From: Fidelibacterota bacterium
GTDB lineage: Bacteria; Fidelibacterota; Marinisomatia; Marinisomatales; UBA1611
Direction: 5' to 3'
DNA: 64,000 nucleotides
NCBI GenBank assembly: GCA_016784605.1
Contig: JADHUI010000001.1
Span: 27,543 to 91,542, forward strand
Below the pieces are notes generated by a model that ran no database searches, had not been told where the DNA came from, and worked only from the letters and a program-made list of their open reading frames with translations. This document shows, in pieces, positions 19,602 to 42,160 of the stretch. A program made the position numbers and the translations under genes. Numbering within the stretch: the stretch's first letter is position 1; the number at the start of each line of letters is the position of its first letter.

Positions 19602-19615
19602 AAAGATAATCTATT

Positions 19616-23140: not shown

Positions 23141-25668
23141 ATCCACCAAAACGCGAACCGCCATCTGATTACCAAAAGGTAGTTGGCTTAAAATATCAAT
23201 TATATAATTCAATATTTCTGACGCTTCCTTTAGGAGGCATCAAAGATATTGGTGTTCTTATTCCAATATTAACGGATGTTTGTCGAAATAAATTATCCAA
23301 AGGCGAATCCCCAAAACAGATAATAGACACTTTTTTAAAAGAACAATTCAAAAATAAGAACGAATCAGATTCGTTTGATTTTTTATTTCGTGTTATTCAA
23401 TTCATAGAGCGACAAGTTGTTCTTATTGATGCTTTAGAAGATGCAACTTTTGAAACATTAAACAATCTTGATGGCGATGGGTCTGTTACAGATTTATTAT
23501 CCAGAACAAGCAGGGAAAATAAAAAGAATAAACTTGAAAACAGTTTAAGCCAATTTTCCATCCGCCCCGTTTTAACCGCCCATCCAACACAATTTTATCC
23601 GGGTCGCGTATTAGCCATTATTACAGATTTAACCGATGCAATTGCTAAAAATGATATTGATTTAATTCACACCTATTTAATGCAATTAGGTATGACGCCA
23701 TTTTTTAAAAAGAACAAACCATCGCCCTACGATGAAGCGGTAAACCTAACGTGGTATTTACAAAATATTTTTTATAGTTCTGCCGGGAATATTGCCACTT
23801 CTCTCAGAAAACATTTATCCAAAAAACCGGGTTACATTCAATCAATCCAACTTGGGTTTTGGCCTGGCGGGGATCGAGACGGCAACCCTTATGTGAATAC
23901 AACAATTACATTAAATGTGGCTCGCCGATTAAAAGAAACGATTCTAAAATGTTATTATACCGATATTCGGAAAATTCGTCGACGCATTTCCTTTTCTGGG
24001 GTGTATGACAATTTGCTCAAGATTGAACAAAAAATCTTAAAATGCATTCGGGGTCATGATTTATGGTCTGCGCAAGAATTATTGGATGAATTGCATATTA
24101 TTTTAAATGACATTAATACTCACCATAATGGCGTCTTTAAAGATTTAATGGAAGATTATATTGATCGAATCTCCATGTTTGGGTTTTATTTCGCAACACT
24201 CGATTTTAGGCAAGACAGTAGCATCATTAAAGAAACAATAAATCAACTATTGCCGAAAAAAGATGGGAAAACCATTACCGCTGAAACACTTTTTTCACAT
24301 GAATTGATAAACGATTTATCTCAATCCACAAACGACCGAATTGAGGATACGCTTCAATCGTTTCAAACCATGAAGCAGATTCAAGAATCAAACGGCGAAA
24401 AAGGAAGTCATCGATACATTATTTCAAATTGCCAAAGCGACAAAGATGTAGCAAGCGTATTCTTTATCGCAAAACAAACCGCATTTCAAAATGGACCAAT
24501 GCCCGTTGATTTTATTCCATTATTTGAAACAATTAACGATTTAAATAATGCAGAACAAATCATGACAGCTCTTTTGAACAATAAAGATTACTTAAACCAT
24601 TTATCAGAACGGGGAAATAAGCAAATTGTTATGCTGGGGTTTTCTGATGGCACAAAAGATGGTGGTTATTTAAGCGCCAATTGGAACATGTATAAAGTAA
24701 GAAAACAATTATCTAACCTTTCCGAGCGACTAGGAATACACATTGTTTTCTTTGATGGTCGCGGCGGCCCGCCCGCCCGCGGTGGTGGAAATACCCACAA
24801 TTATTACGCATCTTTGGGACCCAAAATTGCTTCGACCGAAATTCAACTTACGGTTCAAGGGCAAACGATTTCGAGCAAATTTGGAACCAAAGAATCTGCT
24901 CGTCTAAACTTAGAACAACTATTAACCGCAGGTCTAGATAATTTACTTTTTGACGATCAACACAAAAAACTTTCAGAAGAGAATTATACCCTTTTAGAGC
25001 ACATGAGTTCAACAGCTTTAAAGACATATACAGAATTAAAAAACCACCCACTCTTTACATCTTTCCTTGTTGATATGTCTCCATTAAAATATTACAGCAG
25101 AACCAACATTGGGTCTCGCCCAGACAAAAGAAATGAATCTAACGAAGTAGAATTTCAACAATTAAGAGCCATCCCATTTGTGGGCGCATGGTCCCAAATA
25201 AAACAAAATATCCCGGGGTTTTATGGTTTAGGAACGGCACTTAGAGAGATGGAAGAAAACGGAAAACTAAACGAAATAATACAACTTTATTCAGAATCTC
25301 GGTTTTTTCGAGCTCTAATTGGAAATTCAATGCAAAGTATGTGTAAAACATATTTTCCTTTAACCGACTACATGAAACACGACCCTACTTACGGCGAATT
25401 TTGGGTAATTCTAAAAGAAGAATATGATTTAACTGAACGATTAATTTTAAAAGTTTCAGGTCAAAAAGAATTACTGGAAAACAATCAAAATATTAAAGAA
25501 TCAATTGCATTAAGAGAAGAAACGGTACTTCCTTTGTTGGTTATTCAACAATATGCCCTTATGAGATTAAGAGAAAACGACCTATCGAAAGATCAAATAA
25601 ACATACTGGAAAAAATGATTGTACGCTCCCTATTTGGGAATATTAATGCATCTAGAAATTCGGCTTAG
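23137..25668 (+). CDS. ppc: Phosphoenolpyruvate carboxylase (843 aa, short FCB-type)
   Basis: Conserved PEPC blocks VLTAHPTQ, GFSDGTKDGG, FDGRGGPPARGGG and LRAIPFVGAWSQ. The TTG start overlaps the mltB-like stop (ATTGA), so the exact start is uncertain. Confidence 0.93.
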   Translation: MNPPKREPPSDYQKVVGLKYQLYNSIFLTLPLGGIKDIGVLIPILTDVCRNKLSKGESPKQIIDTFLKEQFKNKNESDSFDFLFRVIQFIERQVVLIDALEDATFETLNNLDGDGSVTDLLSRTSRENKKNKLENSLSQFSIRPVLTAHPTQFYPGRVLAIITDLTDAIAKNDIDLIHTYLMQLGMTPFFKKNKPSPYDEAVNLTWYLQNIFYSSAGNIATSLRKHLSKKPGYIQSIQLGFWPGGDRDGNPYVNTTITLNVARRLKETILKCYYTDIRKIRRRISFSGVYDNLLKIEQKILKCIRGHDLWSAQELLDELHIILNDINTHHNGVFKDLMEDYIDRISMFGFYFATLDFRQDSSIIKETINQLLPKKDGKTITAETLFSHELINDLSQSTNDRIEDTLQSFQTMKQIQESNGEKGSHRYIISNCQSDKDVASVFFIAKQTAFQNGPMPVDFIPLFETINDLNNAEQIMTALLNNKDYLNHLSERGNKQIVMLGFSDGTKDGGYLSANWNMYKVRKQLSNLSERLGIHIVFFDGRGGPPARGGGNTHNYYASLGPKIASTEIQLTVQGQTISSKFGTKESARLNLEQLLTAGLDNLLFDDQHKKLSEENYTLLEHMSSTALKTYTELKNHPLFTSFLVDMSPLKYYSRTNIGSRPDKRNESNEVEFQQLRAIPFVGAWSQIKQNIPGFYGLGTALREMEENGKLNEIIQLYSESRFFRALIGNSMQSMCKTYFPLTDYMKHDPTYGEFWVILKEEYDLTERLILKVSGQKELLENNQNIKESIALREETVLPLLVIQQYALMRLRENDLSKDQINILEKMIVRSLFGNINASRNSA
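25624..25668 (+). repeat. ppc 3'-end repeat, copy A (the functional last 14 codons plus stop of ppc)
   Basis: cgctccctatttgggaatattaatgcatctagaaattcggcttag encodes RSLFGNINASRNSA*. It shares the 29-bp core tttgggaatattaatgcatctagaaattc with copies B and C. Confidence 0.95.
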
Positions 25669-25925
25669 GAGCTAATTTTCTTATTTATTCTTAATGAGTA
25701 GCGGACCCTATAGGCTGAACAGATTTTTAGAATTTAAGATATATAATTCTGCGAGATTTTTCATTAAGCCTCCAACGCTTTTCTTTTGTTGGGTTACTTT
25801 TTATATATACTTGCCTTATCGTATTTCCTTCTAAGGTTGACATATAACTTTTATTATGAAATAGAAGTTATATTTTATATTTTTCCCGCTAATTTTTTAC
25901 TAAAACAAATACGGATAATACATTA

Positions 25926-28900
25926 ATGAAACAATTATTTCGCCCATCAATCATTTTTTTAATTTTAACCACATTAACCCAGTTAGCTGCGCAAGTAGTT
26001 TATCCTGGCGAAGTGGATATAACGGGCACAGAGGAAGTTGTTTTTGATTATACAACAGACGCATGCTCTGAAGATGATATCCCTGATACGCCCGCACGAT
26101 TTTTTAGAGATGCAAATGGACAAATTCAAATGCTTGCGGTACATTATGTTAATTACAGATCGATCGGGTCAGACTTTGATAATTTAACACGAGACTGCAG
26201 TGCGCCAGTATTTGACTCAGACCATAACAGCAACCCAAGCACTTTTAATAACAACGAATGGTTGTCTAATTCATATACCCTTGACGGAAATACTATTTAT
26301 TCAATTGTTCATAATGAATACACACCAGACACCGGAAATGATTATTGGTATAATACTTTAACGTTTGCTACATCTACAGATGCGGGACAATCTTACACTC
26401 AAGCCGCATCACCCGACCATTATTTGGCGGGAACTCCTTACGAACTAGATACAAGCAATATACTCGGTATTTTTGGGGGAAGCTCACCGGTGTATAATGC
26501 GAATGATGGCTATTATTACGCGATGGTTCATTTGGAAGCCTATGGGTTACAAGATTGGGGAGCGGGCTTAATTCGTACTCAAGACTTAAGCAACCCAGAT
26601 AATTGGCGCGGGTGGGACGGTGAAGGTTTTAATGTAGAGTTTAAAAATCCCTATCATGATGTTATTTCGGATCCAGCAGATCATATTCTTGCGCCAGTTT
26701 CAAAAAATAAAATCGCAAAAATGTGCGGCAGCTTAACGTATAATACTTATTTTGAAAAATATATGGTAGTGGAATATGGCGAGTTTTTTGATCCACCATC
26801 TGGGCAAGCAAAATATGGATTCTTTTATTCGTTATCCGAAGATTTGATTAACTGGAGTCACCCAGTAATGATGTATGAAAGTCCGATTCAAACTTGGTGG
26901 GACGTAGGCGGTGTATTTTATCCAAATATTGTTGATCATACAGATACTACGCGAAATTTTGAACGTCCCGGAAGAGAGTGTTATCTCTATTTTACGAAAT
27001 GGAATTCCGGAACATATGACAGGGATTTGGTTCGAGTTCCAATTCGATTTAATAAAAAAGATATTTCAACAATTACAGTAAATAGCGTAGGAGATGATGG
27101 CGCAAACCATGCTTATATCGGAGATGCATCCACTGGAACTACAATTGCAAACGGCGAAGATGAAATCACCTTAAGGTCCGCCATTGAAACAATTAAAGCC
27201 TCTCCAGATACAGGCGCTACATTTACAATTAATTTTAATCTTCCCGGCGATGGCCCACACACCATTTCTCCGGGCTCCAGTTACCCAACATTAACAGGTT
27301 CAATGATTATTGATGGATTCTCTCAAGCCGGAGCCGTTGCAAATGCTAACAGTCTTGCTAACGGAAATAATGCGACGGTGCAAATTGAGATAGACGGAAG
27401 TAGCGCTGGGACTGACGTAAATGCGTTTGTGCTTGATGGAGCATCTTTTGCCATTAAAGGATTATCTATATATGGGTTTGATGCTGGGATTTTTATTGAG
27501 AATGGAAGTTCATCCAGCATTGAAGGTTGTTTTTTAGGATTTAATGCTCTCGGAAATCGTATTGCTGATGAGATGGGTGTAACAATTTTTAATACAGACA
27601 GTATAACAATTGGTGGAACGTCCGCTGCATCCCAAAATGTAATATCGGGTAATGTTATAATAACAGAAACGGGAGCAGAGAACAATGTAGTTTCTGGTAA
27701 TTATATTGGCGCATCGCCAGATGGAGCCACATCAATTAGTAGCGGGATGGTTATTGTTGATAATGGAGCATCGTTTAATACAATAAATTCAAATTTGATT
27801 TCCGGGTCTAGCTATAGTATTCACATTATTAATAGTAGCCTAAACACAATTCAGCAAAATATCACCGGAACAAACTCTACAGGTTTAACGGCCATTGCAC
27901 AAGGGACCATTGTTTTAACTGATAATGCAAGTCTAAACACAATTGATGATAATTTAATATCAGGGACAGGGAATGGTATTGAAATAAATCAAGACTCATA
28001 TCAAAACACAATTACTAACAATTTGATTGGCACAGATGCTAGTGGCACATCAGGCTTAAATGCAGGTTTATACGGAATTTTAGTTCAAACAGGGGCCCAC
28101 GACAATCAGATTGGAACGGTTAATAATGGAAATATAATTGGAGGGCTCACCGAGGTTGGGATTGGCTTAAATGGGGTAGATAATAATGTACTACAAGCGA
28201 ATTATGTCGGGACGAATCCTACTGGTGATAATATTTCAATTGCCACAGAAGGCATTTGGGTTGGCGGTGACTCTGAAGGGAATGTTATCGGCGGAACTTC
28301 TGCTGGAGAAGGAAATATTATAACCAATAATGGCGGTTCTGGGATAAGCCTATCTGGATTAACCGGACAAGGGAACGCTTTTCTTGGTAATGCAATTTAT
28401 AATAACGGACTTTCAGGTATTGGAGATATGACAGAAATTGATGTCCCCAGACCCGATATTGTAATAGCAATGAGTCAGAATACTACGCTTGATATTATTG
28501 GAAATATATCTGGCGAATCGAACTCAACGTATCGAATAGAGCTATTTAATAATTCAGAATGTGACGCATCGGGATCTGGTGAAGGAGAAACTTTTCTTGG
28601 GTTTATCGATGTGACCACAGATGCAAGCGGCATTGGCTCTATCAACGAAACGATTAATGCGAGCGTTGTGTCTGGTGATATTGTTACCGCAACGGCGACA
28701 GGAGAAAATAACAGTACATCTGCCTTCTCAGACTGTGTTGATGTTTTTAATAATGTTGATGCTCCCACAATGACTTTATCTGGGTCAACTTTTTCATTTG
28801 ATTTTCCATCATTTATTCAACCCATAGCTTCTGCAGATATAGTTGTAACAAATTCGGGCGCTTATGAGTTAGAATGGGAAGGAAGTTCAAACGCAGATTG

Positions 28901-31900
28901 GCTGACATTGAGCCCAAACATGGGAACAACATCAGCGGGCGCTGAATCAGAAATAGGATTAAATGTTGACTTATCGGATTCTTCCGTTGGTACGTATTCA
29001 GCTTTAATTACACTTAATTCTAATGACTATCTATTACCATCACAATCAATCTCTATGACTATTCATTATGGTACGGGCGGCCCGACAAACATTTCACATT
29101 CACCAGATACCGTTTTTGTAGATGTTTCTGAAGGTCCAGATACACCCGCGTCATTTTTTATGCTCAACATTGGGAATGAAGCTGTTGATTGGACCGCAGG
29201 GTTTACTGGTATTAATTGGGTTAATAGCGTAACACCTAATAGCGGCTCCACATCTCCTGGAGATTCCGTCGAAATATTTTTTAATGTTCGCCCCGCTAAT
29301 TTGCAACCCGGTGAAAATTCTGGTCTTGTCTGGGTAAGTTTAAACCCCGAATTAACGCAAGTCATGGAAGTACCAGTCATGGCAACATTACTCGTACCTT
29401 CAATATCTGTCTATCCAGAATCAATTGAAGAAGACTTTGAGCCAGTAGCGTCAGACCCAACGCTTTCTTTTCAAATAATGAATACAGGTGACGCAAATTT
29501 AATATGGACAGTTGATGATTTTATTGGGAACAATTGGACGTACTCTTTCAACCCATCTTCAGGCGCAACGCCCCCAGGAGACTCTACAACGATTTCATTT
29601 AACGTGAGAATTAACAGTCTTGATGAAGGGTTAAATACGGGCATTATTCCTATTTCATCAAACGACCAAAGCGCATCAACTCTTCAAATCCCTGTTACTA
29701 TAAATTATACATCTAACTCAGCTCCAAACCCAGAGCTAACGATTGATTCACCTTTAAATAATGCTACTTTTTTCTCATCAGATGTGAATATACATTTTTC
29801 TGCACAAAACTTTAATATTGGCGCAGAATCTGACTCAACAGATGGGCACCTTCATTACCAGTTAAATAACAATGATCCTGAAATGCATTATAGTGAAAAC
29901 GCGGTTCAATTATCTGGGCTTTCGCTTGGTGAACAAACAGTCATTTTATGGTTGGTAGATCATAACCATAATTCATTAGAGCCTCATGTAGCAGACACTG
30001 TTTTATTTACAATTGAAGAAGCGGACGAACTTTATAATCCTTATGATGACGTATCTTATGATTTAATATTATTGGAGTCAATTTCTGGAGACAATATTAA
30101 TGGTTCAAATAATTTCTTAAATAGAATGCCTGAAGATGCTATTATGGTTTACGAGACGAATGAGGGTAGGTTTGGGAAATTACAAATTGGTCATTATGGA
30201 GAAACGTTAACATTGGCTTGGAGCACATACGATGATTCTGGTCAAATCTATTCATCGGGAGAATCTCTCGTTGTGAGTGATGGGGTAGCTGTCGATTTAG
30301 ATGAAGGAGGCATAACAACAGACGAAAGCGCACAAGATTTCTCATGGGATGTAGTTAATGCAATTGATCGGTGGTTCAATGTTGAAAATTCAGCGCAATT
30401 TGGGTTATATGGGTATTGGGGTATTACTCGACAAATGGTGCAAAACCAATCTGGAAATTTATCAAATGCTAATATAGCCGCTGTAGATGAAGGTGAAAAT
30501 AATTTAGAAGATGGTCAGGTTTTGCTTTATCGAACAAATCAAAACAGGTACGGAAAACTTCAGGTTGAAGAATATGGACCCGCATTGCGGATTCGGTGGT
30601 GGACATATAACAATCAAGGCAATATACACTCTATGGGAGACAGTCTTGTTATTGCAAGTAATGCATCTTGCGATTTAGAGATGGGACAACAAACCCCAAA
30701 CAACTCCCCTCATCGTGATTTTTACTGGGAGCAAGTATCCCCAGGTGAAATGTATTTAGTGCCTCGTAATGCGTCGCAATTTGGCGTTTATTCACCAAAT
30801 CATGCTCCAACAGCAAACGATCAGTATTTTGAAACCAATGAGGGAACTTCTGTAGAAATTGTTTTGAATGCAGTCGATGTAGATGGGGATGATTTAATGT
30901 ATGATATTAACGAATGGCCACAGTACGGCTCCCTGTCAGGCACACCTCCTTCTTTTGTGTATGCCCCCAACCCAGAATTCATCGGTGGAGACCAGTTTGT
31001 TTATACAGTTACAGATGGAGAGCTATCTAGTTCGGCAACGGTTTATATTTCAGTTATAGATGGCGGTGGTAATAATAGCGCTCCAGAATTCAATAATTTT
31101 TCGGATTTAGATATTGTTGAAGATTCAGAAGAAAACAGTGTTTATGAAATTTCTGCTAACGATCTTGATGGCGATATGTTAACATTTTCATTGAGCTCTA
31201 ACAACGAATCTGTTTCGTGGGCTGATGAAGGGCAAACAAATACATCTCAGCTTTTTAGATTAGTCGTTTCACCTAATTGGTATGGTAGCGCTGTTTTTAC
31301 GGCCATTGTTTCTGATGGGGAATTAAATGATACATTAAATTTTAATGTAAACGTAACCCCTGTAAACGATTCGCCTACGGCCTCTGATTTAACAATTGAA
31401 ACACAGGAAGATATACCTGTCGCATTTGATTTTATTGGAAACGACATTGATGGTGATGAACTAACATTCATCATTGTCAGCAACCCACAGCATGGCACAC
31501 TTAATGATGGTGTTTATTCGCCCGCAGAAAATTATTTTGGAGAAGACACTTTTCAATATGCTTCACATGATGGAACCGCCAACTCTGAACCGGCAACTGT
31601 GATAATTACTGTCACCCCAATAAATGATTCACCAATAGTTAATGATTTAGAAATTACTTGTTTAGAAGATAATTCTGTTGAAATCAGCTTAGATGGAACC
31701 GATGTTGATGGAGACGATTTAACTTTTAGTGTTTTAACGCCACCAGGACATGGCACATTTAATAATGGTGTTTATTCGCCCGCAGAAAATTATTTTGGAG
31801 AAGATACTTTTACATTTACAGCTTCCGATGGAATTGAACTTTCCAATGAAGGTGTTGTGACAATTGAGGTTGAATCAATCAATGATGCGCCAGAGCCATT

Positions 31901-32537: not shown

Positions 32538-32614
32538 ACTATTTAATACATTATTAATAGAGAAAAGGCATTCTTGACGTTTGCCTTTTCTCTAAATGAA
32601 AGCGCTATAAAAAG
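32271..32614 (+). repeat. 345-bp direct repeat, copy 1: CTD-coding 3' end of giant gene 1 plus downstream hairpin (partner at 39588-39932)
   Basis: Manual alignment to 39588-39932 gives 8 substitutions and one 1-nt indel over ~345 bp (about 97-98% identity). The two copies are offset by 7317 bp. Confidence 0.95.
32559..32593 (+). terminator. Conserved hairpin downstream of giant gene 1 (putative terminator)
   Basis: Perfect 12-bp stem agagaaaaggca / tgccttttctct with an 11-nt loop, 22 bp after the stop. An identical copy lies at 39876-39910. There is no clean trailing U-run (the T-rich tract is inside the 3' arm). Confidence 0.55.
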
Positions 32615-32622
32615 CCACTACT

Positions 32623-32667
32623 CAGCCCTTCTTTGGGAATATTAATGCATCTAGAAATTCGGCATAG
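32623..32667 (+). repeat. ppc 3'-end repeat, copy B (orphan fragment between the two giant genes)
   Basis: cagcccttctttgggaatattaatgcatctagaaattcggcatag would read QPFFGNINASRNSA* in frame. From ttt (32632) onward, the 36 bp match ppc with a single substitution (gct to gca) and keep a TAG stop. No ORF leads into it. Confidence 0.9.
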
Positions 32668-32755
32668 AGTCTAATTTCGATTTATCTTTAATAAGATATG
32701 ATAGGCTGTAGCACTGTCCAAAATAAATTAGATTTTTCATATTTTAGATAAATCC

Positions 32756-32800
32756 ACCTGACCGCCCTGGCGATAACCTGTGCTGTTAGTCAGGTTTTTT
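32756..32800 (+). terminator. Orphan intrinsic-terminator-like hairpin inside the ORF-free spacer
   Basis: acctgac ... gtcaggt outer stem enclosing a small cgc/gcg inner stem, followed directly by TTTTTT (32795-32800). It lies ~90 bp after ppc remnant B, and no annotated gene ends here. Confidence 0.45.
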
Positions 32801-33166
32801 ATCATATTTCAAAAACAAACCCCCAATGAGCGCGATAGAGGCTCTATAAGTGGAAGTTTGAGTCAATATTACCAAGAGATGATTTTATGGACCCACCCCT
32901 AAACAAACTCGGGATTTACATTTCGCCCAAACTTTGATTTCCCCCTTTTCTTTAAACCCCAACTACACCTTCCCCGCAACGAGGAAGACTTTAATGTAAT
33001 AGGAAGAAAACAGCCAAAAACATCCGAATATTTTCCCCTGTAATAGGGGAAATACAAAGGGGTCATTATAATATTTATTACACTTTTACAAAACGTTTTG
33101 GACAGACGTGAACAGGTCCATTAAAACTTTTATAGAATTTGTGTTTTTATTATTAATTAAGTAAAA

Positions 33167-33206
33167 TAGACAGTTAGACAGTTAGACAGTTAGACAGTTA
33201 GACAGT
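33167..33206 (+). repeat. Perfect tandem repeat (TAGACAGT)x5 upstream of giant gene 2
   Basis: Five uninterrupted 8-bp units at 33167-33206, followed by TTTTTT. The repeat ends 64 bp before ATG 33270. Confidence 0.95.
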
Positions 33207-33269
33207 TTTTTACTTGTTAGGGCGAGGAAAAACTGCTCAATTTACAAACAAACGAGAAGAGAGAATCCC

Positions 33270-36200
33270 ATGAAATACGTACAGTATTGTCTTATATCCA
33301 TATTTTTTATCCAAGTTGCTTTTTCAGCAAGTGTTAAAGATAACCCCAGAAAAAAACAACAGAGCAGAAAAACCGAAATTCCTGTAGAAAGGGTAAGAAA
33401 AAATCACTCTGAGGATATAGATGCGCCAAAAGTTAAACCTACCCGAGAAGATGATCGTGTATCAAAAGTACAACAAATTAAAGATGGCGTTATTTCGATC
33501 CAGGATGTATTTACAATAGAGACGCCCCAGACGCGTTCTGTAACAAACTTTACCGAATATACTGTTTGCTCTGTTGGGTGCGACTATGATGATGTTATGA
33601 CCGCAATTAATAGTGTTCCAAGTTTCTCCACCATTTTCATTTCTGAGCCGGGCACATATTATGTGTCTGATATACAATTAGAAGAAAAATCTATTTGGAT
33701 TCGCGGATTAAGCCCAGAAGAAACAATTTTAACAGGAGAAAACCCAGACGGACTAGACTCGAATCTTGTTTATTTTGAAAAATTAGATTATGCTGATTGG
33801 ACTCTTGAAGAAAACCAAGACAGAATTGCAGACAGTGTTTGGATTACCCGCGGCGACAATCAACCCATCTTTAATGCTGCTGTGGAAGCGTATAATGATA
33901 CAGACACCGATCTTACGCCTACAAATACATTATGGGCGCAGGGCAGGACGGCGGATGTGGACTCATCTGATTATGAAACTTTCGCACCCATGACAGGCTG
34001 GTGCCCGCCGTGTATTTTAGGCCAAACATTATCTCTAAAGCTCCCCGGTGCGGGTGAAGATAGTTCGGATGTTTTTTATGACCTGGTTATTACACAATGG
34101 ACACAAAATGGTGCAGGCGGAGGATTCGCTTATTATAGAGGAGAGCCAGGAGTATCTCTACCACTCTCTGCTACAATGATTTCCCTTTCCGATTCGAGTG
34201 AAAATGATACAATTTCATATTTACAACTTTCAGATTTATCTATTGTTGATGGGTCGGGTTCGAATGGAAGCCCGGGTGGTATTTTAATTGATGAAAATAC
34301 GTATGATTCAACCACGGTTGTATTTGAAAATGTACACGGCACAAATCATAGCGGCGGGTTTTTAAGATCTTATTCTAACAACACTGCCATTTATATTAAT
34401 AATTCCGAATTTTTTAATAATAACTCATCTAATGATGGGGGTGTTATTTATTTAGATTTTGGAGATTTAAATATTAATAATTCCGAATTTTTTAATAATA
34501 ACTCATCTAATGATGGGGGTGTTAGTTATTTAGATTTTGGAGATTTAAATATTAATAATTCCGAATTTTCCAATAACACAACTAATGGCGATGGAGGTGT
34601 GTTTTACATAGATGATGGAAATTATAATATTAATAATTCCGAATTTTCCAACAATTCATCTAATGATGATGGAGGTGTTATATATCATTATGACGCCGAA
34701 GGCATGATTCTGAATAGTGCTTTTACACACAACTCATCGGGAGATGACGGGGGTGTTATAAATAATGAGAGTGGTGACTTATACATCGGGAACTCTCATT
34801 TCTCTGAAAATGAAAGTTCATATGGGGGTGCTATATATATGGATTACGGCGACGATTTTGTCACTTTTAACACTTCATTTGAAAATAATATCGCAACATC
34901 GTCTGGAGGCGCCATTTACATTGAAGAAAGCGCAGATGGGTACTTTTATCAAACACATTTTCACGAAAATATGTCGGGAAATGAAGGTGGCGCTTTTTAT
35001 ATTGAAAATTATGAAGATGATTTTGATATTTCGGTAGAATTTCATTCTTCATCTTTTGTAGAAAACATAGCCGAAGGAGACGGTGGTGCCATTTTTTCTT
35101 ATGATGATTATGATGGGCGTATTAAAATTTATTCATCTGTGTTTGATGGCAATTCATCGGAAAGCGATGGAGGCGCAATCTATATTGACGATGATGGCGA
35201 ACTTTGGATAGAAAATTCTTCATTTGTTAGGAATTCAGCCGGGGATGATGGTGGCGCTATTTATAATGATGATGCAGATTCTCCTGGCGTTATAATGATT
35301 AACACAACAATCGCTAATAATAGCGCATCAGACGAAGGTGGTGCCATTATAAATGATGATTATTTGTTTTTATATAACTGTACAGTAGCATTTAATGATG
35401 CAGGATATGATTATGGAGGTATTGACGATGTAGACGATATGAGTTCCACAGTTATTGCTCAAAACACTGTTACGGGAGACGATTATTCCTATCCGGATGT
35501 AGACTATGCTTACATTAGCGAACGCAATATTATTGGAAATATTGGAGAAGGGTCAATTTATATATACAATGATGTGTATGGCGACTCCTGGATTGGAAAC
35601 CCCGATTCGTTGGGGACTATCGATTCAGTTGCAATAGCGCACGGCGTGGTTGTTTATGATACACCAATTAATGCTCAACTTGCGTTTGTTAATGATGAAC
35701 CATTACCCTACATGATTCCTTATCCCGGTAGCTTAGCCATTGATAATGGAATAGACTGGTATAATTGGGATGATGAATATGTAACGGTTAATTATGATAT
35801 GCTAGGAAGACCGCGAAGCTGGCCTTATAATTCAGATATTGGAGCAATTGAACGCACCCCAGGAGATCCCCACGAAGACCAAATCGCACCTGGAACAATT
35901 GATGATTTAGCAGGGGCGCCATCTATTGAAGGTGGTATCCAACTATCATGGACTGCTGTTGGTTCTGATGGAAATATAGGAACAGTGGCGGAATATATGG
36001 TTTATTACAGTGCGAATACATTTGAAGATCCTAGCGAATCTACTGTAATGGGAATCAACCCCGGAATCAACCCAAGTCAGTCAGGCACAAATGAATCTTT
36101 TCTACTAGGTGGGCTTGATTATGGATCGGCTTATTACATCCGCATCATTACATTTGATGAAATTGGTCAACCTTCGGACTTGTCCAATGAAATTGCTGTT

Positions 36201-39200
36201 GAAACATTAAACGCGCCGAGCGTGGCTGTTTCTACAACAAGTGCATCGATTACTCTTCCTGCAGAATCAGAAGGTACGCGTCAATTAACCCTAGGGAACG
36301 ACGGTCAAAGTCTTTTAGAGTGGAGCGCCACAATTCTTACGGAAGATACTTCATCTGTAAGAAGCTCAAGCCCCGTATTTGGCACGGGAACGCTTAGTGA
36401 CCTTGAAAAAAGCGCATCAGATTATGTGAACCACCCTAGGCCTGAAAACTTATTTTCAGATGAGTCTTTTCCTCTCGACCCACACATGCAAAGTGTGTTA
36501 TCTAGTCGAATAAATGCCAACCCTTTAGAAAACATTCTTTCAATGTTTGAAGAAAAACATCAAACCATTATTGATCTAGTGCCAAATCCGTGGGTTATTG
36601 AAGATGGCGTAACCGGAGATAATATTAACGACGGTGGGGACGATATGTACGATGGGGGAAATTATTTAAGTACAGATAACGAACAAAATCCACTTGCATA
36701 TTCAGATAGTGTTATTATTGCCAGTAGTCATTTAGGAGAAACAGGTCAGTATTTTACACGAAAATATGATGAATTGTTTGTTTTCGCTGCCGATCTAGAT
36801 TCTGTAAGCGATTTTTATATTACGGGGAATCTCGGCGCAGATGGAAGTGGAAGTGTTGACGGTATTATTGTTGAAGAGAGCGGGTATACCGGGTTTGTTA
36901 AGCGTGTATATAATGCTGGCGATCCTTCTATTAATCATATGGTCATTATTCAAAATACAGAAGGAGCCAGTCATGATTTTTCTACAGATACAAATAATGA
37001 CTATCACCATATTGGCGGTTTAATCAATGTTACACAACTATATTATATATTGTATGCCAGTAGCGGCGGGGCGCTGGTTGACGATGAAACAACATTAAGT
37101 ATTATGAGCGCTATGCTTGATATAATTGACCCAACATGGTTGCATGTTTCAGAAAATCAAGGCGAAATCCTTCCCGGCGAAACACAATTAATCGAGATAT
37201 TGTTTAATACAACAGAGTTAGCGGATACAAGCTTAGCAGGATTAATTACCCTAACGACTAATGACCCCAATGTAGCAGAAATACCTATCGATGTAAGTAT
37301 GGTTGTTTCTAGTGAAAACCTATCTCCGGTATTGCATACAGCTCAATTATCAGACGCGATAGAAGATGAACCTTATTTATTCCAGCTTGTAGGGGAAGAC
37401 CCTAATGGTGACACTATTCACTATACATTGGTTGATGGACCCAGCTGGATGTCAATATCAGAAAGTGGCGAAGTTACAGGTATGCCGACAAATGAAAACG
37501 TGAGTGATTCGGACACACTTTCAGTTAATTTAAACGACGGAACAGTGGATATATCTTTTGGTATGACCGTGACTGTGATTAATAGCAATGATAGTCCTTT
37601 TGTTCTAAATGGGTTTGAACCCGTTGTTGTTAATGAAGATTCAGAGCCAATAACGATTGATCTTTCTCAAATATTTAGTGATGATGATATGAATATTGAG
37701 TTAGACTCGTTAATCTACCTAGCGGAAGGTTTTATGACTTTTCGAAAGGAAAATAACGCAGATTGGACCCTTGAAGAAAACCAGGATCGCGTAAATGATG
37801 CAGTGTGGATAACAAGAAAAAACAATCAATCTATATTCAATATTATGCGAGAAGATGGTTATTCTCAAGCAGATGGTAGCCCTCAAGGCACGGAATGGTC
37901 CCTTGGTTATGCGAGTCAATCAAACGAACTTATGTTTGAGCCATTTATATCGGCAGTAAGTAATTCTCCGCAAAGCTCAATCGGAAAACCGCTAGTCATG
38001 CATACTGTGGATGATAACCATTATTATAATATGATGATTCATCAATGGACGGGCGGAAATAATGGCGGAGGACTTGCTTGGACGCGCTCTAGTGTAGAAA
38101 ATAATGATACGCCTATTGCAACTCCTGAAATAAATGGATCAAACCTAACCATTTATTTCCATCCAAACGCTTTCGGAGAAACTGAATTGGTTATTCTTGC
38201 CATAGATGAATCGGGAGAAACTGTTGCTGATTCTTTAAGCATAATGATAAACCCAGTAAACGATTTACCTGGAGATGTGGCATTGCTACACCCAGCGGAT
38301 AATTCCACCATTTCGATTCTTAACCCAACATTATCTTGGGAAGAACCAATCGATTTCGAAAATGGCGAAACATCTGGAAGTAGCAATGATCATTTGGTTA
38401 AAAATACTCAAACTCAATCTAATTCACGTTCCATTGCAAGTTATAATGTGTATGTAGGTACTGACACTGCATTAACTGCAGAAGATTTTTTAGAGAATGT
38501 GGCAATAAATTCATATACCATCTCCAGCGATTTGGTAGATGATGCTACATATTTTTGGATGGTAGAAGCGGTGGATGATGATGGGGGTATTTCAACTTCA
38601 GACACATGGTCGTTTACAATAAACACAGGGAACAATCCACCATCATCTTTTGAGCTTGTTTCACCTTCTCCAGAATTAGTTTTGTATTCAACGGATGTCA
38701 CTTTTGAATGGATGCCGAGTTATGATCCAGACCCAAATGACAATGTTCATTTTGCGCTTAACGTGAATTCTGATACGTTACACCTTCATTATGAAACAGA
38801 TTCAATATCGTACTTAGCGTCTCAATTCCAGGATAATAAAGTATATCATTGGTCTGTAGATGCTTATGATAATTATGGCGCGATGGTACAAAATATCGGC
38901 GGACCACGTATGTTTGTGGTAAATACCGCAAACGATAATCCATCATCCCCAGAATTAGTTGCTCCTTTAAGCGGAAGTATACAGACAAACCTTATGCCAA
39001 GCTTTTTCTGGACTCGATCACACGATATTGATCCTATGGATCATGTATCATACGAGTTAAGTTGGCAACAAATTGGAGACGCGTTAAATCCGCATATTAT
39101 AAATACGGATAGTAACGGAGTTTCCCTCGAAGAAAACCTTGAAGATAATTCATCTTTTATTTGGTCAGTAAGAGCAATGGATTTGAATAACGGCGAATCA

Positions 39201-39854
39201 TTAACGGATACGATGCATTTTTATACAGACGCATTTCCAGAACCCCCACTTGCCTTTGTGACACTTTCACCGGAGAATGAAGCAACTGGCTTAGGAACGG
39301 AAGTTGAATTTGTTTGGGCCGAATCAATTGACCCAGACCCAATTGATGACATTCATTATCAGCTTGTTTATGCTACAGATTGGCAAGATAGCAGTACATA
39401 CGTTTTCAGCGAAAACGTTCAAGATACATCCTTAATAATTTCAATGGAAAATAATACATTATATTATTGGGGAGTAATTGCTCGGGACAATGATGGGTTT
39501 ATGGTTGGAAGTAACGATAATACCCCAAACACAATGGTGATTGGTACGCTGGGGATTGATGACCAAGCGATACCAGATGCTTTTGCCTTACACCAAAATT
39601 ATCCAAACCCATTTAACCCAACGACAACGCTTCGATATGATTTACCAGAAGACACCCATGTTCAAATTGTTATTTACGATATTATGGGGCAACAGGTTAA
39701 AACACTGATCAATGAAGAGCAAAATGCTGGCTTTAAAGCAGTTGTTTGGGATGCTACAAATCATATTGGGCAGCCAGTGAGTGCAGGAATGTACTTATAT
39801 CAGATAAGTGCGGGAGGATTCAACAAAACGATAAAAATGGTTTTATTGAAATAG
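33270..39854 (+). CDS. Giant secreted T9SS cargo protein (2194 aa). Domains: Pmp-type (GGA[IV] / FxxN) beta-helix repeats, a duplicated unknown DWTLEENQDR domain, FN3/Ig-like and cadherin-like domains, and a T9SS CTD
   Basis: Signal peptide MKYVQYCLISIFFIQVAFSAS. More than 12 repeats of the form F.(E/N)N.(A/S)...(D/E)GGAIY (e.g. FENNIATSSGGAIYIEE, FVENIAEGDGGAIFSYD, FDGNSSESDGGAIYIDD), the hallmark of polymorphic-membrane-protein repeats. CTD FALHQNYPNPFNPTTTLRYDL...GMYLYQISAGGFNKTIKMVLLK. Confidence 0.85.
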   Translation: MKYVQYCLISIFFIQVAFSASVKDNPRKKQQSRKTEIPVERVRKNHSEDIDAPKVKPTREDDRVSKVQQIKDGVISIQDVFTIETPQTRSVTNFTEYTVCSVGCDYDDVMTAINSVPSFSTIFISEPGTYYVSDIQLEEKSIWIRGLSPEETILTGENPDGLDSNLVYFEKLDYADWTLEENQDRIADSVWITRGDNQPIFNAAVEAYNDTDTDLTPTNTLWAQGRTADVDSSDYETFAPMTGWCPPCILGQTLSLKLPGAGEDSSDVFYDLVITQWTQNGAGGGFAYYRGEPGVSLPLSATMISLSDSSENDTISYLQLSDLSIVDGSGSNGSPGGILIDENTYDSTTVVFENVHGTNHSGGFLRSYSNNTAIYINNSEFFNNNSSNDGGVIYLDFGDLNINNSEFFNNNSSNDGGVSYLDFGDLNINNSEFSNNTTNGDGGVFYIDDGNYNINNSEFSNNSSNDDGGVIYHYDAEGMILNSAFTHNSSGDDGGVINNESGDLYIGNSHFSENESSYGGAIYMDYGDDFVTFNTSFENNIATSSGGAIYIEESADGYFYQTHFHENMSGNEGGAFYIENYEDDFDISVEFHSSSFVENIAEGDGGAIFSYDDYDGRIKIYSSVFDGNSSESDGGAIYIDDDGELWIENSSFVRNSAGDDGGAIYNDDADSPGVIMINTTIANNSASDEGGAIINDDYLFLYNCTVAFNDAGYDYGGIDDVDDMSSTVIAQNTVTGDDYSYPDVDYAYISERNIIGNIGEGSIYIYNDVYGDSWIGNPDSLGTIDSVAIAHGVVVYDTPINAQLAFVNDEPLPYMIPYPGSLAIDNGIDWYNWDDEYVTVNYDMLGRPRSWPYNSDIGAIERTPGDPHEDQIAPGTIDDLAGAPSIEGGIQLSWTAVGSDGNIGTVAEYMVYYSANTFEDPSESTVMGINPGINPSQSGTNESFLLGGLDYGSAYYIRIITFDEIGQPSDLSNEIAVETLNAPSVAVSTTSASITLPAESEGTRQLTLGNDGQSLLEWSATILTEDTSSVRSSSPVFGTGTLSDLEKSASDYVNHPRPENLFSDESFPLDPHMQSVLSSRINANPLENILSMFEEKHQTIIDLVPNPWVIEDGVTGDNINDGGDDMYDGGNYLSTDNEQNPLAYSDSVIIASSHLGETGQYFTRKYDELFVFAADLDSVSDFYITGNLGADGSGSVDGIIVEESGYTGFVKRVYNAGDPSINHMVIIQNTEGASHDFSTDTNNDYHHIGGLINVTQLYYILYASSGGALVDDETTLSIMSAMLDIIDPTWLHVSENQGEILPGETQLIEILFNTTELADTSLAGLITLTTNDPNVAEIPIDVSMVVSSENLSPVLHTAQLSDAIEDEPYLFQLVGEDPNGDTIHYTLVDGPSWMSISESGEVTGMPTNENVSDSDTLSVNLNDGTVDISFGMTVTVINSNDSPFVLNGFEPVVVNEDSEPITIDLSQIFSDDDMNIELDSLIYLAEGFMTFRKENNADWTLEENQDRVNDAVWITRKNNQSIFNIMREDGYSQADGSPQGTEWSLGYASQSNELMFEPFISAVSNSPQSSIGKPLVMHTVDDNHYYNMMIHQWTGGNNGGGLAWTRSSVENNDTPIATPEINGSNLTIYFHPNAFGETELVILAIDESGETVADSLSIMINPVNDLPGDVALLHPADNSTISILNPTLSWEEPIDFENGETSGSSNDHLVKNTQTQSNSRSIASYNVYVGTDTALTAEDFLENVAINSYTISSDLVDDATYFWMVEAVDDDGGISTSDTWSFTINTGNNPPSSFELVSPSPELVLYSTDVTFEWMPSYDPDPNDNVHFALNVNSDTLHLHYETDSISYLASQFQDNKVYHWSVDAYDNYGAMVQNIGGPRMFVVNTANDNPSSPELVAPLSGSIQTNLMPSFFWTRSHDIDPMDHVSYELSWQQIGDALNPHIINTDSNGVSLEENLEDNSSFIWSVRAMDLNNGESLTDTMHFYTDAFPEPPLAFVTLSPENEATGLGTEVEFVWAESIDPDPIDDIHYQLVYATDWQDSSTYVFSENVQDTSLIISMENNTLYYWGVIARDNDGFMVGSNDNTPNTMVIGTLGIDDQAIPDAFALHQNYPNPFNPTTTLRYDLPEDTHVQIVIYDIMGQQVKTLINEEQNAGFKAVVWDATNHIGQPVSAGMYLYQISAGGFNKTIKMVLLK
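34395..34706 (+). repeat. Four in-frame 78-bp tandem repeats (26-aa Pmp-type units) inside giant gene 2
   Basis: Units at 34395, 34473, 34551 and 34629. Units 1 and 2 differ at one nucleotide (INNSEFFNNNSSNDGGVIYLDFGDLN versus ...GGVSYLDFGDLN). Units 3 and 4 are more diverged. Confidence 0.9.
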
Positions 39855-39932
39855 ACTATTTAATACATTATTAATAGAGAAAAGGCATTCTTGACGTTTG
39901 CCTTTTCTCTAAATGAAAGCGCTATAAAAAAG
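39588..39932 (+). repeat. 345-bp direct repeat, copy 2: CTD-coding 3' end of giant gene 2 plus downstream hairpin (partner at 32271-32614)
   Basis: See copy 1. Includes the identical hairpin at 39876-39910. Confidence 0.95.
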
Positions 39933-39940
39933 ATGTTTTT

Positions 39941-39985
39941 CGCTCCCTATTTGGGAATATTAATGCATCTAGAAATTCTGCATAA
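39941..39985 (+). repeat. ppc 3'-end repeat, copy C (orphan fragment before the dioxygenase-like gene)
   Basis: cgctccctatttgggaatattaatgcatctagaaattctgcataa encodes exactly RSLFGNINASRNSA*, like ppc. The only differences are tcg to tct, gct to gca (both synonymous) and TAG to TAA. No ORF leads into it. Confidence 0.95.
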
Positions 39986-40004
39986 AAGCACCTAGCTTTT
40001 CCAT

Positions 40005-42138: not shown

Positions 42139-42160
42139 CGAGATTAAGTATTATTTATAT

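What the first reader, a model, noticed from the sequence alone, without database searches (positions are those of the whole stretch)
25624..39985. Two ~7 kb single-gene mega-adhesin cassettes stacked behind ppc, each bounded by a copy of the ppc 3' end (att-like triplication, no recombinase in view)
Seen directly: the last 45 bp of ppc (copy A, 25624-25668) recur twice as orphan fragments, once after each giant T9SS gene (B 32623-32667, C 39941-39985). All three share an identical 29-bp core, tttgggaatattaatgcatctagaaattc, and all keep the ppc reading frame and a stop codon (TAG, TAG, TAA). Copy C encodes exactly RSLFGNINASRNSA*, with only synonymous changes and a different stop codon. The flanks follow a specific pattern. 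Sequence to the right of A and of B is recognisably related for ~100 bp (ctaattt.., ttaata/ttaatgag, ataggctg, agattttt..). Sequence to the left of B and of C is ~98% identical over 345 bp (CTD-coding region plus a 12-bp-stem hairpin). The ~6 kb gene bodies between are unrelated (PbH1/cadherin-like versus Pmp-repeat protein). The sequence to the right of C is unique and runs straight into the next chromosomal gene. This is the topology expected when related integrative elements insert serially into the 3' end of a gene while carrying a replacement 3' end, as established for islands at tRNA/tmRNA and some protein-gene 3' ends. Each unit here carries one giant T9SS surface-protein gene. I see no integrase, transposase or excisionase anywhere in the 64 kb. 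The units would therefore be cargo-only cassettes mobilised in trans, or fossils. The core contains imperfect inverted arms GAATATT / GAAATTC around an ATGCAT palindrome, compatible with a recombinase core site (inference only).
Basis: partly seen in the sequence, partly recalled or inferred. Interest (0 to 1): 0.85.

Follow-up and report, generated by a model that had tools for sequence, protein, structure and literature searches.

The report
Adhesin genes stacked into ppc's tail
In an uncultured marine Marinimicrobia bacterium, two giant secreted surface-protein genes were inserted one after the other into the last 45 bases of the essential ppc gene, each leaving a displaced copy of the gene's tail, but nothing shows that they are self-contained mobile elements rather than products of ordinary recombination.

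Summary
An identical 29-nt core occurs three times: at the end of ppc, and once after each giant type IX secretion system (T9SS) gene.

- About 25 related lineages have ppc followed directly by the dioxygenase gene (here called diox), with an 18-21 nt spacer in nearly all. This is the empty site.
- Copy C plus its spacer aligns with that junction.
- Two sister species carry only the Pmp-repeat gene. The ppc end and downstream sequence of the closer one is the orthologue of copy B and its flank.
- A strain about 98% identical carries only gene 1.
- States with 0, 1 and 2 genes therefore all exist, and the newest insert lies nearest ppc.

The "trans-mobilised cassette" reading has no positive support:
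- No recombinase lies in the 64 kb.
- The core occurs nowhere except at ppc loci in three public collections.
- No other cargo was seen, and composition matches the host.
- The shared 350-bp right end is a recently homogenised secretion-signal (CTD) and hairpin segment.
- The one-gene strain did not lose its cassette at the core.

All junctions fall on two islands of near-identity: the codons for the PEPC C-terminus and the T9SS CTD motif. My best reading is sequential displacement by homology-anchored recombination. A site-specific mechanism is not excluded.

The parts
23137..25668 (+). ppc (phosphoenolpyruvate carboxylase), intact, 843 aa
   Evidence: Pfam PEPcase E=2.9e-137. It is 100% identical to a protein annotated as Candidatus Marinimicrobia PEPC.
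25624..25668 (+). Copy A: the functional ppc terminus. It comprises 9 nt, the 29-nt core (25633-25661) and the tail GGCTTAG.
   Evidence: The tail GGC(T/A)TA(G/A) is the cassette-side type. It is shared with copy B and with the ppc of the sister species L017.
25669..25925 (+). Leader 1: 257-nt intergenic region upstream of gene 1. Its first 80-100 nt are a roughly 70% diverged homologue of the sequence right of copy B.
   Evidence: The anchored prefix alignment exceeds 200/200 shuffles. See also the alignment.
25926..32537 (+). Gene 1: a 2203-aa T9SS-secreted surface protein (BACON_2, Big_9, cadherin-like, C-terminal sorting domain). It is the younger insert.
   Evidence: Pfam. It is absent from the sister species, which run from ppc straight into the Pmp gene. 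The nearest homologues outside its own species are 38-40% identical over 58% of the protein.
32265..32613 (+). Right-end repeat, copy 1. It covers the CTD-coding part (32265-32537), the stop codon, the 11-13 bp stem hairpin (32560-32592) and about 20 nt beyond.
   Evidence: 97.1% identical to 39582-39931. Fold z=-3.8. The hairpin stem is conserved in relatives, with one compensatory G-C to A-T change.
32614..32631 (+). xB: an 18-nt GC-rich patch, GCCACTACTCAGCCCTTC, unique to this strain. It matches the equivalent stretch left of copy C at 7 of 18 positions. Unexplained.
32623..32667 (+). Copy B: the displaced ppc terminus that served ppc before gene 1 arrived (core 32632-32660, tail GGCATAG).
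   Evidence: With its right flank it is 93.5% identical over 77 nt to the live ppc end and downstream sequence of L017. nhmmer E=6e-10 against the empty-site profile.
32668..33269 (+). Leader 2: the upstream region of gene 2. It holds a 414-bp MITE-like insertion (32706-33119) and an 8-nt tandem repeat, TAGACAGT x5.1 (33167-33207).
   Evidence: Collinear with L017 except for the 414 bp. Terminal inverted repeats CTGTCCAAAA/TTTTGGACAG. Tandem repeat.
33270..39854 (+). Gene 2: a 2194-aa T9SS-secreted Pmp-repeat protein. It is the older insert, inherited vertically.
   Evidence: Pfam. It is collinear at about 80% DNA identity with the single gene between ppc and diox in the species whose ppc proteins are 89% and 85% identical.
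39582..39931 (+). Right-end repeat, copy 2 (CTD, stop, hairpin 39877-39909, about 20 nt).
   Evidence: Against L017, the stretch 39620-39979 is only 57-73% identical, while both flanks are 86-93% identical.
39941..39985 (+). Copy C: the oldest displaced ppc terminus (core 39950-39978, chromosome-side tail TGCATAA).
   Evidence: It aligns with the intact ppc ends of empty-site genomes and continues into the same spacer and diox start (nhmmer E=5e-59).
39986..40916 (+). The ancestral 19-nt ppc-diox spacer and the dioxygenase gene (Tat-like RRDFIK start, T9SS CTD).

Best explanation
This is a strain-variable surface-protein locus. It was built by sequential displacement at the junction between ppc and the dioxygenase gene (diox).

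**Steps shown.**
- Ancestrally, ppc ran almost directly into diox, with a spacer of about 19 nt.
- A Pmp-repeat T9SS gene was inserted in the ancestor of a small clade. The insertion gave ppc a replacement terminus and left the old 45-nt terminus (copy C) in front of diox.
- Later, in this species only, a second giant T9SS gene (gene 1) was inserted at the same terminal segment. That pushed the previous terminus (copy B) and the Pmp gene downstream.
- Some strains then lost the Pmp gene by a crossover inside the 350-bp CTD-hairpin repeat.

**Mechanism inferred.**
- The events after the first are recombination between diverged alleles or copies of this locus, probably following DNA uptake.
- Such crossovers can resolve only where diverged sequences still share a run of identity. 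There are two such runs here. One is the last codons of PEPC, conserved by protein function and AT-rich codon bias. The other is the NYPNPFNP motif at the start of the T9SS C-terminal domain.
- This makes the core look like an att site without a dedicated recombinase.
- The very first duplication of the ppc tail needs one illegitimate join, of the homology-facilitated illegitimate recombination type, or an unknown site-specific event.

**Functional consequence (inferred).** Strains differ in which giant adhesin-like proteins they display. The repeats let the array expand, contract and exchange.
For: - **Empty site.** ppc followed directly by diox occurs in L025, L026, L029, L030 and about 22 metagenome loci.
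- **Copy C.** C, its spacer and diox are collinear with those junctions.
- **Sister species.** One Pmp gene lies between ppc and diox in the species with 89% and 85% ppc identity. Copy B and its flank are orthologous to the live ppc end of the 89% species.
- **Gene 1 strain.** The gene-1-only strain is 98.3% identical. It carries C's left flank and a mostly B-type CTD, so the crossover lay inside the CTD-hairpin repeat.
- **Sharp borders.** Protein identity between gene 1 and gene 2 starts exactly at the CTD motif. Against L017, a divergent tract (57-73%) runs from just after the CTD motif to the right edge of the core, between flanks of 86-93%.
- **Right end.** CTD1 and CTD2 are 96.7% identical to each other, but about 71% to L017 and 67-69% to L012. 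L017 and L012 are 73% identical to each other. The right end is therefore a recent import, copied behind both genes.
- **Copy C refreshed.** C's core carries three states of the current ppc where the sister species' orphan and the 85% species' ppc keep other bases. The copies have therefore exchanged sequence.
- **Another locus.** Elsewhere in the window, a 338-aa T9SS gene is present or absent between relatives, with breakpoints in CTD repeats.
- **No element signature.** There is no recombinase domain in the window and composition is host-like. The core occurs nowhere but at ppc loci. No other cargo was seen.
- **Precedent.** Serial displacement with orphan remnants behind a conserved gene, attributed to homologous plus homology-facilitated illegitimate recombination, is described for T6SS effector-immunity arrays and Rhs loci (PMC5361080).
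Against: - **Shared boundary.** The orphan remnants (C here, the orphan in L017, and probably B) begin at about the same position, roughly 9 nt before the core. All preserve the frame and the stop codon. That precision is what a site-specific system gives.
- **Short homology.** Homologous recombination across only 29-45 nt is inefficient. Before homogenisation the copies shared runs of only about 11 nt. The refreshing of copy C is therefore awkward for RecA-type recombination.
- **No donor tract.** No donor-derived tract is visible in the last 287 nt of ppc. Both junctions of the gene 1 insertion therefore lie within or next to the 32-nt block, as a circle integrating by one conservative crossover would give.
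- **Unexplained details.** The origin of the first duplication and of the 18-nt patch xB is not explained. No donor of gene 1 was found.
- **Limited reach.** Only 64 kb of the genome was searched for recombinases.
Confidence: 0.55

Rival explanations
1. These are cassettes without an integrase, mobilised in trans by a site-specific recombinase encoded elsewhere. They would be analogous to cis-mobilisable elements that accrete at the att site of an integrative element in a gene's 3' end. The 29-nt core would be the crossover site, and each integration at the live ppc end would supply a replacement tail.
For: - The topology is that of attL, an internal att and attR, with the newest unit next to the gene and an intact ppc frame.
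- Empty, single and double states exist.
- Both junctions of the gene 1 insertion lie inside or beside the 32-nt identity block, with no donor tract in ppc.
- The remnants share the same left boundary.
- The cassette-side tail GGC(T/A)TA(G/A) is distinct from the chromosome-side tail TGC(A/T/G)TAA across species. This is as expected if the element supplies the new stop codon.
- The prophage e14, which integrates in icd, shows that a displaced 3' end of a housekeeping gene is a normal footprint of such systems (PMC6379469).
Against: - No recombinase lies in the 64 kb, and none lies next to ppc in about 35 related loci.
- The core is absent from every non-ppc context in the GTDB genomes, the JGI/ENA metagenome contigs and IMG/VR.
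- Only two events occurred in the history of the clade. There is no third cargo, and composition is host-like.
- The only observed loss (L002, L003) is not a core-to-core excision.
- In L017 the two att-like copies differ at 3 of 29 core positions.
- The inverted arms in the core are weak (5 of 7) and were not tested further.
Confidence: 0.22
2. These are fossils of one or two conventional genomic islands or prophages that carried their own integrase. They would have integrated into the ppc 3' end and then been reduced by deletion to the single cargo gene.
For: The displaced 3' end footprint is the same as for e14 in icd. Marinimicrobia loci here do show frequent deletions.
Against: - Each unit has only 150-600 nt of non-coding DNA besides the giant gene. 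No pseudogene fragments were detected by the ORF and Pfam scans.
- The same clean reduction would have had to happen twice.
- The Pmp unit is equally bare in all three species that carry it.
- GC does not differ from the host.
Confidence: 0.08
3. A single ancient tandem duplication of one unit (ppc tail, adhesin gene, terminator) occurred, followed by divergence of the gene bodies. The one-gene genomes would then be secondary losses.
For: - The two genes have nearly the same length (2203 and 2194 aa).
- Their leaders are weakly homologous and their right ends nearly identical.
- Losses by recombination between repeats do occur.
Against: - The gene bodies are unrelated in sequence and domain content.
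- Gene 1 is absent from all sampled contigs of both sister species.
- Divergence is wildly uneven: right end 97%, leaders about 70%, bodies none.
- Copy C cannot come from this duplication, because it is contiguous with the ancestral spacer.
Confidence: 0.05

Closest known systems
Sequential displacement arrays: Rhs "C-terminal displacement" and Vibrio T6SS effector-immunity arrays (Kirchberger et al. 2017, PMC5361080; Jackson et al. 2009, cited there)
   Same: - New DNA enters at the 3' part of a conserved gene and pushes older units downstream.
- Orphan remnants of the conserved 3' region mark each former junction.
- No integrase is involved.
- The mechanism proposed there is homologous recombination anchored in the conserved gene plus an illegitimate or short-homology join.
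   Different: - Here the conserved gene is a metabolic housekeeping gene (ppc) that is not part of the cargo.
- The cargo is a complete, independently expressed T9SS surface-protein gene, not a toxin tip with an immunity gene.
- The downstream anchor is a second conserved motif, the T9SS C-terminal domain.
Integration of prophage e14 (and phage 21) into the 3' end of icd in E. coli
   Same: The insert supplies a replacement 3' end, so the housekeeping gene stays intact. The original 3' end (163 bp in icd) remains as an orphan pseudo-fragment at the far junction (PMC6379469).
   Different: e14 encodes its own integrase and excises precisely. Here no integrase is present, the units are single genes, and two are stacked.
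Cis-mobilisable elements and tandem accretion at the att site of streptococcal integrative conjugative elements in the 3' end of fda
   Same: Units flanked by att repeats but lacking recombination genes sit in tandem in the 3' end of a housekeeping gene. In principle they can be moved by an integrase supplied in trans.
   Different: In that system the cognate integrase-bearing element is known and found at the same site. Here no such element was found at ppc in any related locus.
Integron cassette arrays, including arrays without an integron integrase
   Same: Single-gene units are stacked in one orientation, with the newest nearest the insertion point. A structured element lies at the 3' end of each unit.
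   Different: - The repeat here is a copy of a host gene's terminus, not an attC site.
- The hairpin is a plain perfect stem directly after the stop codon.
- The units are about 7 kb with their own leaders.
- No intI is present.

Membership tests
Site-specific integrative element in a gene 3' end (e14/icd type, or a cis-mobilisable derivative) | Direct repeats (attL, attR) that contain the target gene's 3' end. The gene stays intact and the displaced original end lies at the far junction. | tested here: met
   Three copies of the core. Copy C is collinear with the empty-site junction. Copy B is orthologous to a live ppc end.
Site-specific integrative element in a gene 3' end (e14/icd type, or a cis-mobilisable derivative) | A cognate integrase or recombinase, either in the element or elsewhere in the genome for a cis-mobilisable derivative. 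| tested here: not met
   - No recombinase Pfam domain was found in my scans of 27 window ORFs of at least 120 aa, nor in the precomputed Pfam annotation of called genes in 13137-52909.
- None lies beside ppc in the related loci.
- The rest of the genome could not be searched, so supply in trans remains untestable here.
Site-specific integrative element in a gene 3' end (e14/icd type, or a cis-mobilisable derivative) | Unoccupied target site in related genomes. | tested here: met
   About 25 loci have ppc followed directly by diox, with an 18-21 nt spacer in nearly all.
Site-specific integrative element in a gene 3' end (e14/icd type, or a cis-mobilisable derivative) | Evidence of mobility: the same unit in other genomes or loci, excised circles, or core-precise excision. 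| tested here: not met
   - The core occurs only at ppc loci and is absent from IMG/VR.
- Gene 1 is confined to one species.
- The exact gene 2 protein is seen only in the two-gene context.
- The loss in L002 has its crossover outside the core.
- Read-level data were not available.
Sequential displacement array (Rhs / T6SS effector-immunity type) | A conserved upstream gene whose 3' part is reused as the entry point. Older units are shifted downstream, each preceded by a remnant of that 3' part. | tested here: met
   The order is ppc, A, gene 1, B, gene 2, C, diox, with nested ages: C oldest, then B, then A.
Sequential displacement array (Rhs / T6SS effector-immunity type) | The cargo is the variable C-terminal part of the conserved gene plus an immunity gene. 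| tested here: not met
   ppc is complete and separate. The cargo genes are whole T9SS surface-protein genes with their own starts and leaders.
Sequential displacement array (Rhs / T6SS effector-immunity type) | Breakpoints located in stretches of local sequence identity, as homologous recombination gives, rather than at one fixed site. | tested here: inconclusive
   Breakpoints fall at the CTD motif, inside the CTD-hairpin repeat and at the core. However, the ppc-side breakpoints all fall in the same 45 nt.
Integron cassette array | attC recombination sites at cassette ends, and an intI integrase with an attI site. | tested here: not met
   The repeated unit is a ppc fragment. The hairpin is a simple 11-13 bp stem. 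No integrase domain was found. No formal attC model was run.

The most novel reading that the evidence does not exclude
The 29-45 nt ppc terminus is a true attachment site for a recombinase encoded elsewhere in Marinimicrobia genomes. Single giant T9SS adhesin genes would then circulate as integrase-less cassettes that excise as circles and re-integrate at the live ppc end. In effect this would be an integron-like adhesin-shuffling system that uses a housekeeping gene's tail as its insertion site.
Probability: 0.2. Interest if true: 0.8.

Novelty: new variant of a known kind. Interest (0 to 1): 0.5.

Why it matters
Marinimicrobia (SAR406) are abundant and uncultured, and almost nothing is known about how they vary their cell surface.

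This locus gives a dated, stepwise record of how giant T9SS surface-protein genes are gained, stacked and lost between strains that are about 98% identical. It runs from the empty site to one gene and then two, with one loss.

It also shows that two short conserved segments can act as de facto recombination sites: the PEPC C-terminal codons and the T9SS sorting-domain motif. If that holds generally, any T9SS cargo gene could be swapped using its sorting-domain motif as one homology arm. This would be a simple route to surface diversity across the Bacteroidota and their relatives.

If a trans-acting recombinase is involved instead, this would be a new class of single-gene mobile cassette.

Tried and rejected
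- **Assembly artefact: rejected.** The two-gene arrangement recurs in several independent assemblies. Short Logan contigs start exactly at the core, as k-mer repeat breaks predict. They give no information on circular junctions.
- **Orphan longer than 45 nt: rejected.** nhmmer extended the hits 23-44 nt to the left of the core. The left flanks alone score nothing against a profile of ppc ends.
- **A diox 5' remnant inside leader 1** (a local alignment hint): not supported by the profile search.
- **The same footprint behind other T9SS genes in the window:** none found.
- **Known RNA families** in the leaders, the hairpin region or the rest of the window: none.
- **A phage or plasmid vehicle.** The core is absent from IMG/VR. 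The hairpin pattern hit six viral contigs, which I judged to be chance stem-loops and did not follow.
- **A donor of gene 1.** No protein more than 40% identical exists outside the species.
- **A source locus for Pmp.** Pmp-like genes at other loci in other lineages carry no ppc fragments. A neighbouring 6.5-kb difference there is a plain deletion.
- **A donor tract in ppc.** Sliding identity to L017 shows nothing unusual at the 3' end.
- **Extra cassettes in the 85% species.** The differences between L012, L013 and L014 are internal repeats and a scaffold gap.
- **Literature on ppc as an integration site:** nothing relevant.


Full report
**1. What is in the sequence**

The 29-nt string TTTGGGAATATTAATGCATCTAGAAATTC occurs three times on the + strand, at 25633, 32632 and 39950. 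None is expected by chance.

- The first copy is the end of ppc (23137..25668; PEPcase, E=3e-137).
- The other two lie after the stop codons of two giant genes.
- Gene 1 is 25926..32537 (2203 aa; BACON_2, Big_9, cadherin-like domains).
- Gene 2 is 33270..39854 (2194 aa; Chlam_PMP repeats).
- Both genes end in a type IX secretion system (T9SS) C-terminal sorting domain, the CTD.
- The next gene (40005..40916) is a dioxygenase, here called diox, which also carries a T9SS CTD.

Copies A and C translate to RSLFGNINASRNSA*, and copy B to QPFFGNINASRNSA*. A and C share 38 identical nt. A and B share 32. The "core" is the overlap of those two tracts.

The two proteins are unrelated except for their last 92 residues. 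Identity begins abruptly at ALHQNYPNPFNP. At DNA level, 32265-32613 and 39582-39931 are 97.1% identical. Each repeat includes an 11-13 bp stem hairpin directly after the stop codon, and that hairpin occurs nowhere else in the window.

The right flanks of A and B are weakly homologous, about 70% over 80-100 nt. An alignment anchored at the stop codon beats 200/200 shuffles. An unanchored local alignment does not stand out.

No tRNA gene and no Rfam family is present. No recombinase domain was found either. This rests on Pfam scans of 27 ORFs of at least 120 aa and on the precomputed Pfam annotation of the called genes across 13137-52909. GC content of the cassettes equals that of the flanks. 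The window lies next to dnaA and yidC.

**2. Organism and relatives**

The ppc protein is 100% identical to one annotated as Candidatus Marinimicrobia. Look-ups of the exact proteins and of graded ppc homologues gave the same locus in a series of relatives.

| ppc protein identity | Arrangement between ppc and diox | Loci |
|---|---|---|
| about 70% (many lineages) | nothing; spacer 18-21 nt in the metagenome loci, 51 nt in L026 | L026, L029, about 21 metagenome loci |
| 78% | nothing; 19-nt spacer | L025, L030, L054 |
| 85% | one Pmp gene; no recognisable orphan | L012-L016, L074 |
| 89% | one Pmp gene, then an orphan copy of the ppc end in front of diox | L017-L024, L032/L033 |
| same species, strains about 98.3% identical in DNA | gene 1 only, then orphan C | L002, L003 (=L045/L047) |
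| window strain | gene 1, B, Pmp gene, C (several assemblies) | L001, L004, L011, L061 |

**3. What the three copies are**

Copy C, its 19-nt spacer and the diox start align base for base with the intact junction of ppc end, spacer and diox in the empty-site genomes. A profile of 18 such junctions hits 39928-40208 with E=5e-59. C is therefore the original ppc terminus, left behind when the first insert arrived.

Copy B with its right flank is 93.5% identical over 77 nt to the live ppc end and downstream sequence of the 89% species. From there the two genomes are collinear into the Pmp gene, apart from a 414-bp insertion in the window. B is therefore the terminus that served ppc before gene 1 was inserted.

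The tails after the core sort the same way:

- The cassette-side tail GGC(T/A)TA(G/A) is found in A, in B and in the 89% species' ppc.
- The chromosome-side tail TGC(A/T/G)TAA is found in C, in the 89% species' orphan and in the ppc of the 85% and 78% species.

The order of events is therefore: empty site, then insertion of Pmp, then insertion of gene 1 next to ppc. His refutation criterion of "no presence/absence polymorphism" is not met.

**4. What argues against autonomous or trans-mobilised cassettes**

(a) No recombinase was found in the window, nor beside ppc in about 35 related loci. One distant lineage has an IS3-type ORF after ppc, but in a different gene context.

(b) A degenerate core pattern was scanned against three collections. 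In one genome per GTDB species and in the JGI/ENA metagenome contigs, it found only ppc ends and these orphans. In IMG/VR it found nothing. This includes a 541-kb contig of this species, which holds only copies A and C.

(c) There are only two insertion events and two cargo genes in the whole clade. Gene 1 has no relative above 40% identity outside its species. Pmp-like genes at other loci in other lineages carry no ppc fragments.

(d) The "common right end" is not conserved between species. CTD1 and CTD2 are 96.7% identical to each other, but about 71% to the Pmp CTD of the 89% species and 67-69% to that of the 85% species. Those two species are 73% identical to each other. A sliding comparison with the 89% species shows three zones:

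| Window positions | Identity to L017 |
|---|---|
| 39350-39619 | 87-93% |
| 39620-39979 (CTD after the motif, hairpin, left flank of C, core) | 57-73% |
| from 39980 onward | 86-92% |

The right end is thus a divergent segment imported into this lineage. It probably came with gene 1, and it now sits behind both genes. Its borders are at the CTD motif and at the right edge of the core.

(e) The gene-1-only strain has C's own left flank (GATGTTTTTCGCTCCCTA) and a mostly B-type CTD. Since Pmp is vertically inherited and gene 1 is shared by both strains, that strain most simply lost Pmp by a crossover inside the 350-bp repeat. It was not a core-to-core excision.

(f) In the 89% species the orphan core differs from the ppc core at 3 of 29 positions.

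(g) Elsewhere in the window, a 338-aa T9SS gene is present or absent between relatives, with breakpoints in CTD repeats. Recombination through the CTD is therefore a general route of cargo turnover here.

**5. What keeps a site-specific mechanism alive**

- The remnants (C here, the orphan in the 89% species, and probably B) start at about the same position, roughly 9 nt before the core. The sequence further to the left has no detectable ppc homology.
- Identity between the window's ppc and the 89% species' ppc is ordinary right up to the core (0.86 in the last 287 nt). Both junctions of the gene 1 insertion therefore lie in or beside the 32-nt block. A circle integrating by one conservative crossover would give this.
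- C's core in the window carries three bases of the current ppc (GGG, AAT, GCA). The sister species' orphan and the 85% species' ppc have GGA, AAC, GCG, and the 9 nt to the left of C are also identical to the current ppc. The copies have therefore exchanged sequence. Before that exchange they shared runs of only about 11 nt, which is poor substrate for RecA-type recombination.
- The 18-nt patch xB (32614-32631) is unique and unexplained.

**6. Best explanation**

I favour sequential displacement by recombination without a dedicated element (confidence 0.55).

Diverged alleles of this locus share long identity in only two places. One is the PEPC C-terminal codons, which are nearly invariant at nucleotide level across the clade. 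The other is the NYPNPFNP motif that opens the T9SS sorting domain, about 40 nt identical between species. Crossovers between diverged DNA can resolve only there. This accounts for:

- the sharp borders seen at the CTD motif and at the core;
- the duplication of the right end;
- the stacking, by an unequal exchange between an orphan of one allele and the live ppc end of another;
- the later loss in some strains.

The first duplication of the ppc tail still needs one illegitimate or site-specific event. Homology-facilitated illegitimate recombination, anchored in ppc, would produce it. That mechanism has been proposed for the analogous orphan arrays behind T6SS and Rhs genes (PMC5361080).

The rival explanations are a trans-acting site-specific recombinase (0.22), decayed integrase-bearing islands (0.08) and one old tandem duplication (0.05).

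**7. Comparison with known systems, and verdict**

The footprint of a replacement 3' end with the displaced original at the far junction is that of prophage e14 in icd (PMC6379469). The stacking without an integrase resembles Rhs and T6SS displacement arrays, and cis-mobilisable elements at ICE att sites.

This locus does not qualify as a member of any of these families:

- No recombinase and no evidence of mobility was found, so it is not shown to be an integrative element.
- The cargo is not a toxin tip of the conserved gene, so it is not a polymorphic-toxin array.
- There is no attC or intI, so it is not an integron.

It is a new variant of a known kind. A housekeeping gene's tail and the T9SS sorting-domain motif serve as recombination anchors for whole adhesin genes in an uncultured marine phylum. 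Interest is moderate, at 0.5.

The decisive data are junction-spanning reads from the source metagenomes and a recombinase census of the complete genomes.

Noticed in passing
window 32706-33119: A 414-bp segment in the leader of gene 2 is absent from the sister species L017. It has terminal inverted repeats (CTGTCCAAAA ... TTTTGGACAG, extendable to about 24 nt with mismatches) and looks like a MITE. Only one copy occurs in all the sequence fetched.
   Followed up: partly
window 33167-33207: A perfect 8-nt tandem repeat, TAGACAGT x5.1, lies about 65-100 nt upstream of the gene 2 start. The sister species L017 has 3 copies. It is a candidate slipped-strand switch for adhesin expression.
   Followed up: partly
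window 34393-34685; L017-L023: Gene 2 contains 78-nt tandem repeats. Its orthologue in the 89% species varies from 2187 to 2316 aa between samples, so repeat number differs within populations.
   Followed up: partly
window 38180-39349: The C-terminal third of gene 2 is only 51-67% identical to the L017 orthologue, while adjacent stretches are 87-93% identical. The gene body is itself a mosaic.
   Followed up: no
window 18543-19352 (gene 18585..19601): A 338-aa T9SS protein gene is missing in L017. The breakpoints lie in two 250-nt CTD repeats (18294-18542 and 19352-19603, about 85% identical). The gene is present in the 78% species, so L017 lost it.
   Followed up: partly
window 44432-46430: A cohesin/dockerin T9SS gene and the 5' part of a MauG-like peroxidase gene are deleted in the 98% strain (L002, L003). 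The junction shows a short microhomology (TTGAAT / ATTGATTCAAT).
   Followed up: partly
window 32614-32631: An 18-nt GC-rich patch, GCCACTACTCAGCCCTTC, lies between the 97%-identical repeat and the identical core of copy B. It replaces an equally long, unrelated stretch found at copy C. Its origin is unknown.
   Followed up: partly
window 1009-9703: The window starts next to yidC and dnaA, so it is probably near the replication origin. A 1739-aa T9SS protein gene (4484..9703) follows dnaA directly. The N-terminal 58% of gene 1 matches, at 38-40% identity, a family of Marinimicrobia T9SS proteins, several of which are also 1739 aa long. Whether 4484..9703 belongs to that family was not tested.
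   Followed up: no
window 40924-43984 versus L025: The amine oxidase and M28 peptidase genes between diox and the DUF525 gene are absent in the 78% species, where diox is followed directly by DUF525. The neighbourhood downstream of diox is therefore also variable.
   Followed up: no
L027/L028 12714-13058: In a lineage with 69% ppc identity and a different gene context, an IS3-type transposase ORF (HTH_Tnp_1) lies 179 nt after the ppc stop codon.
   Followed up: no
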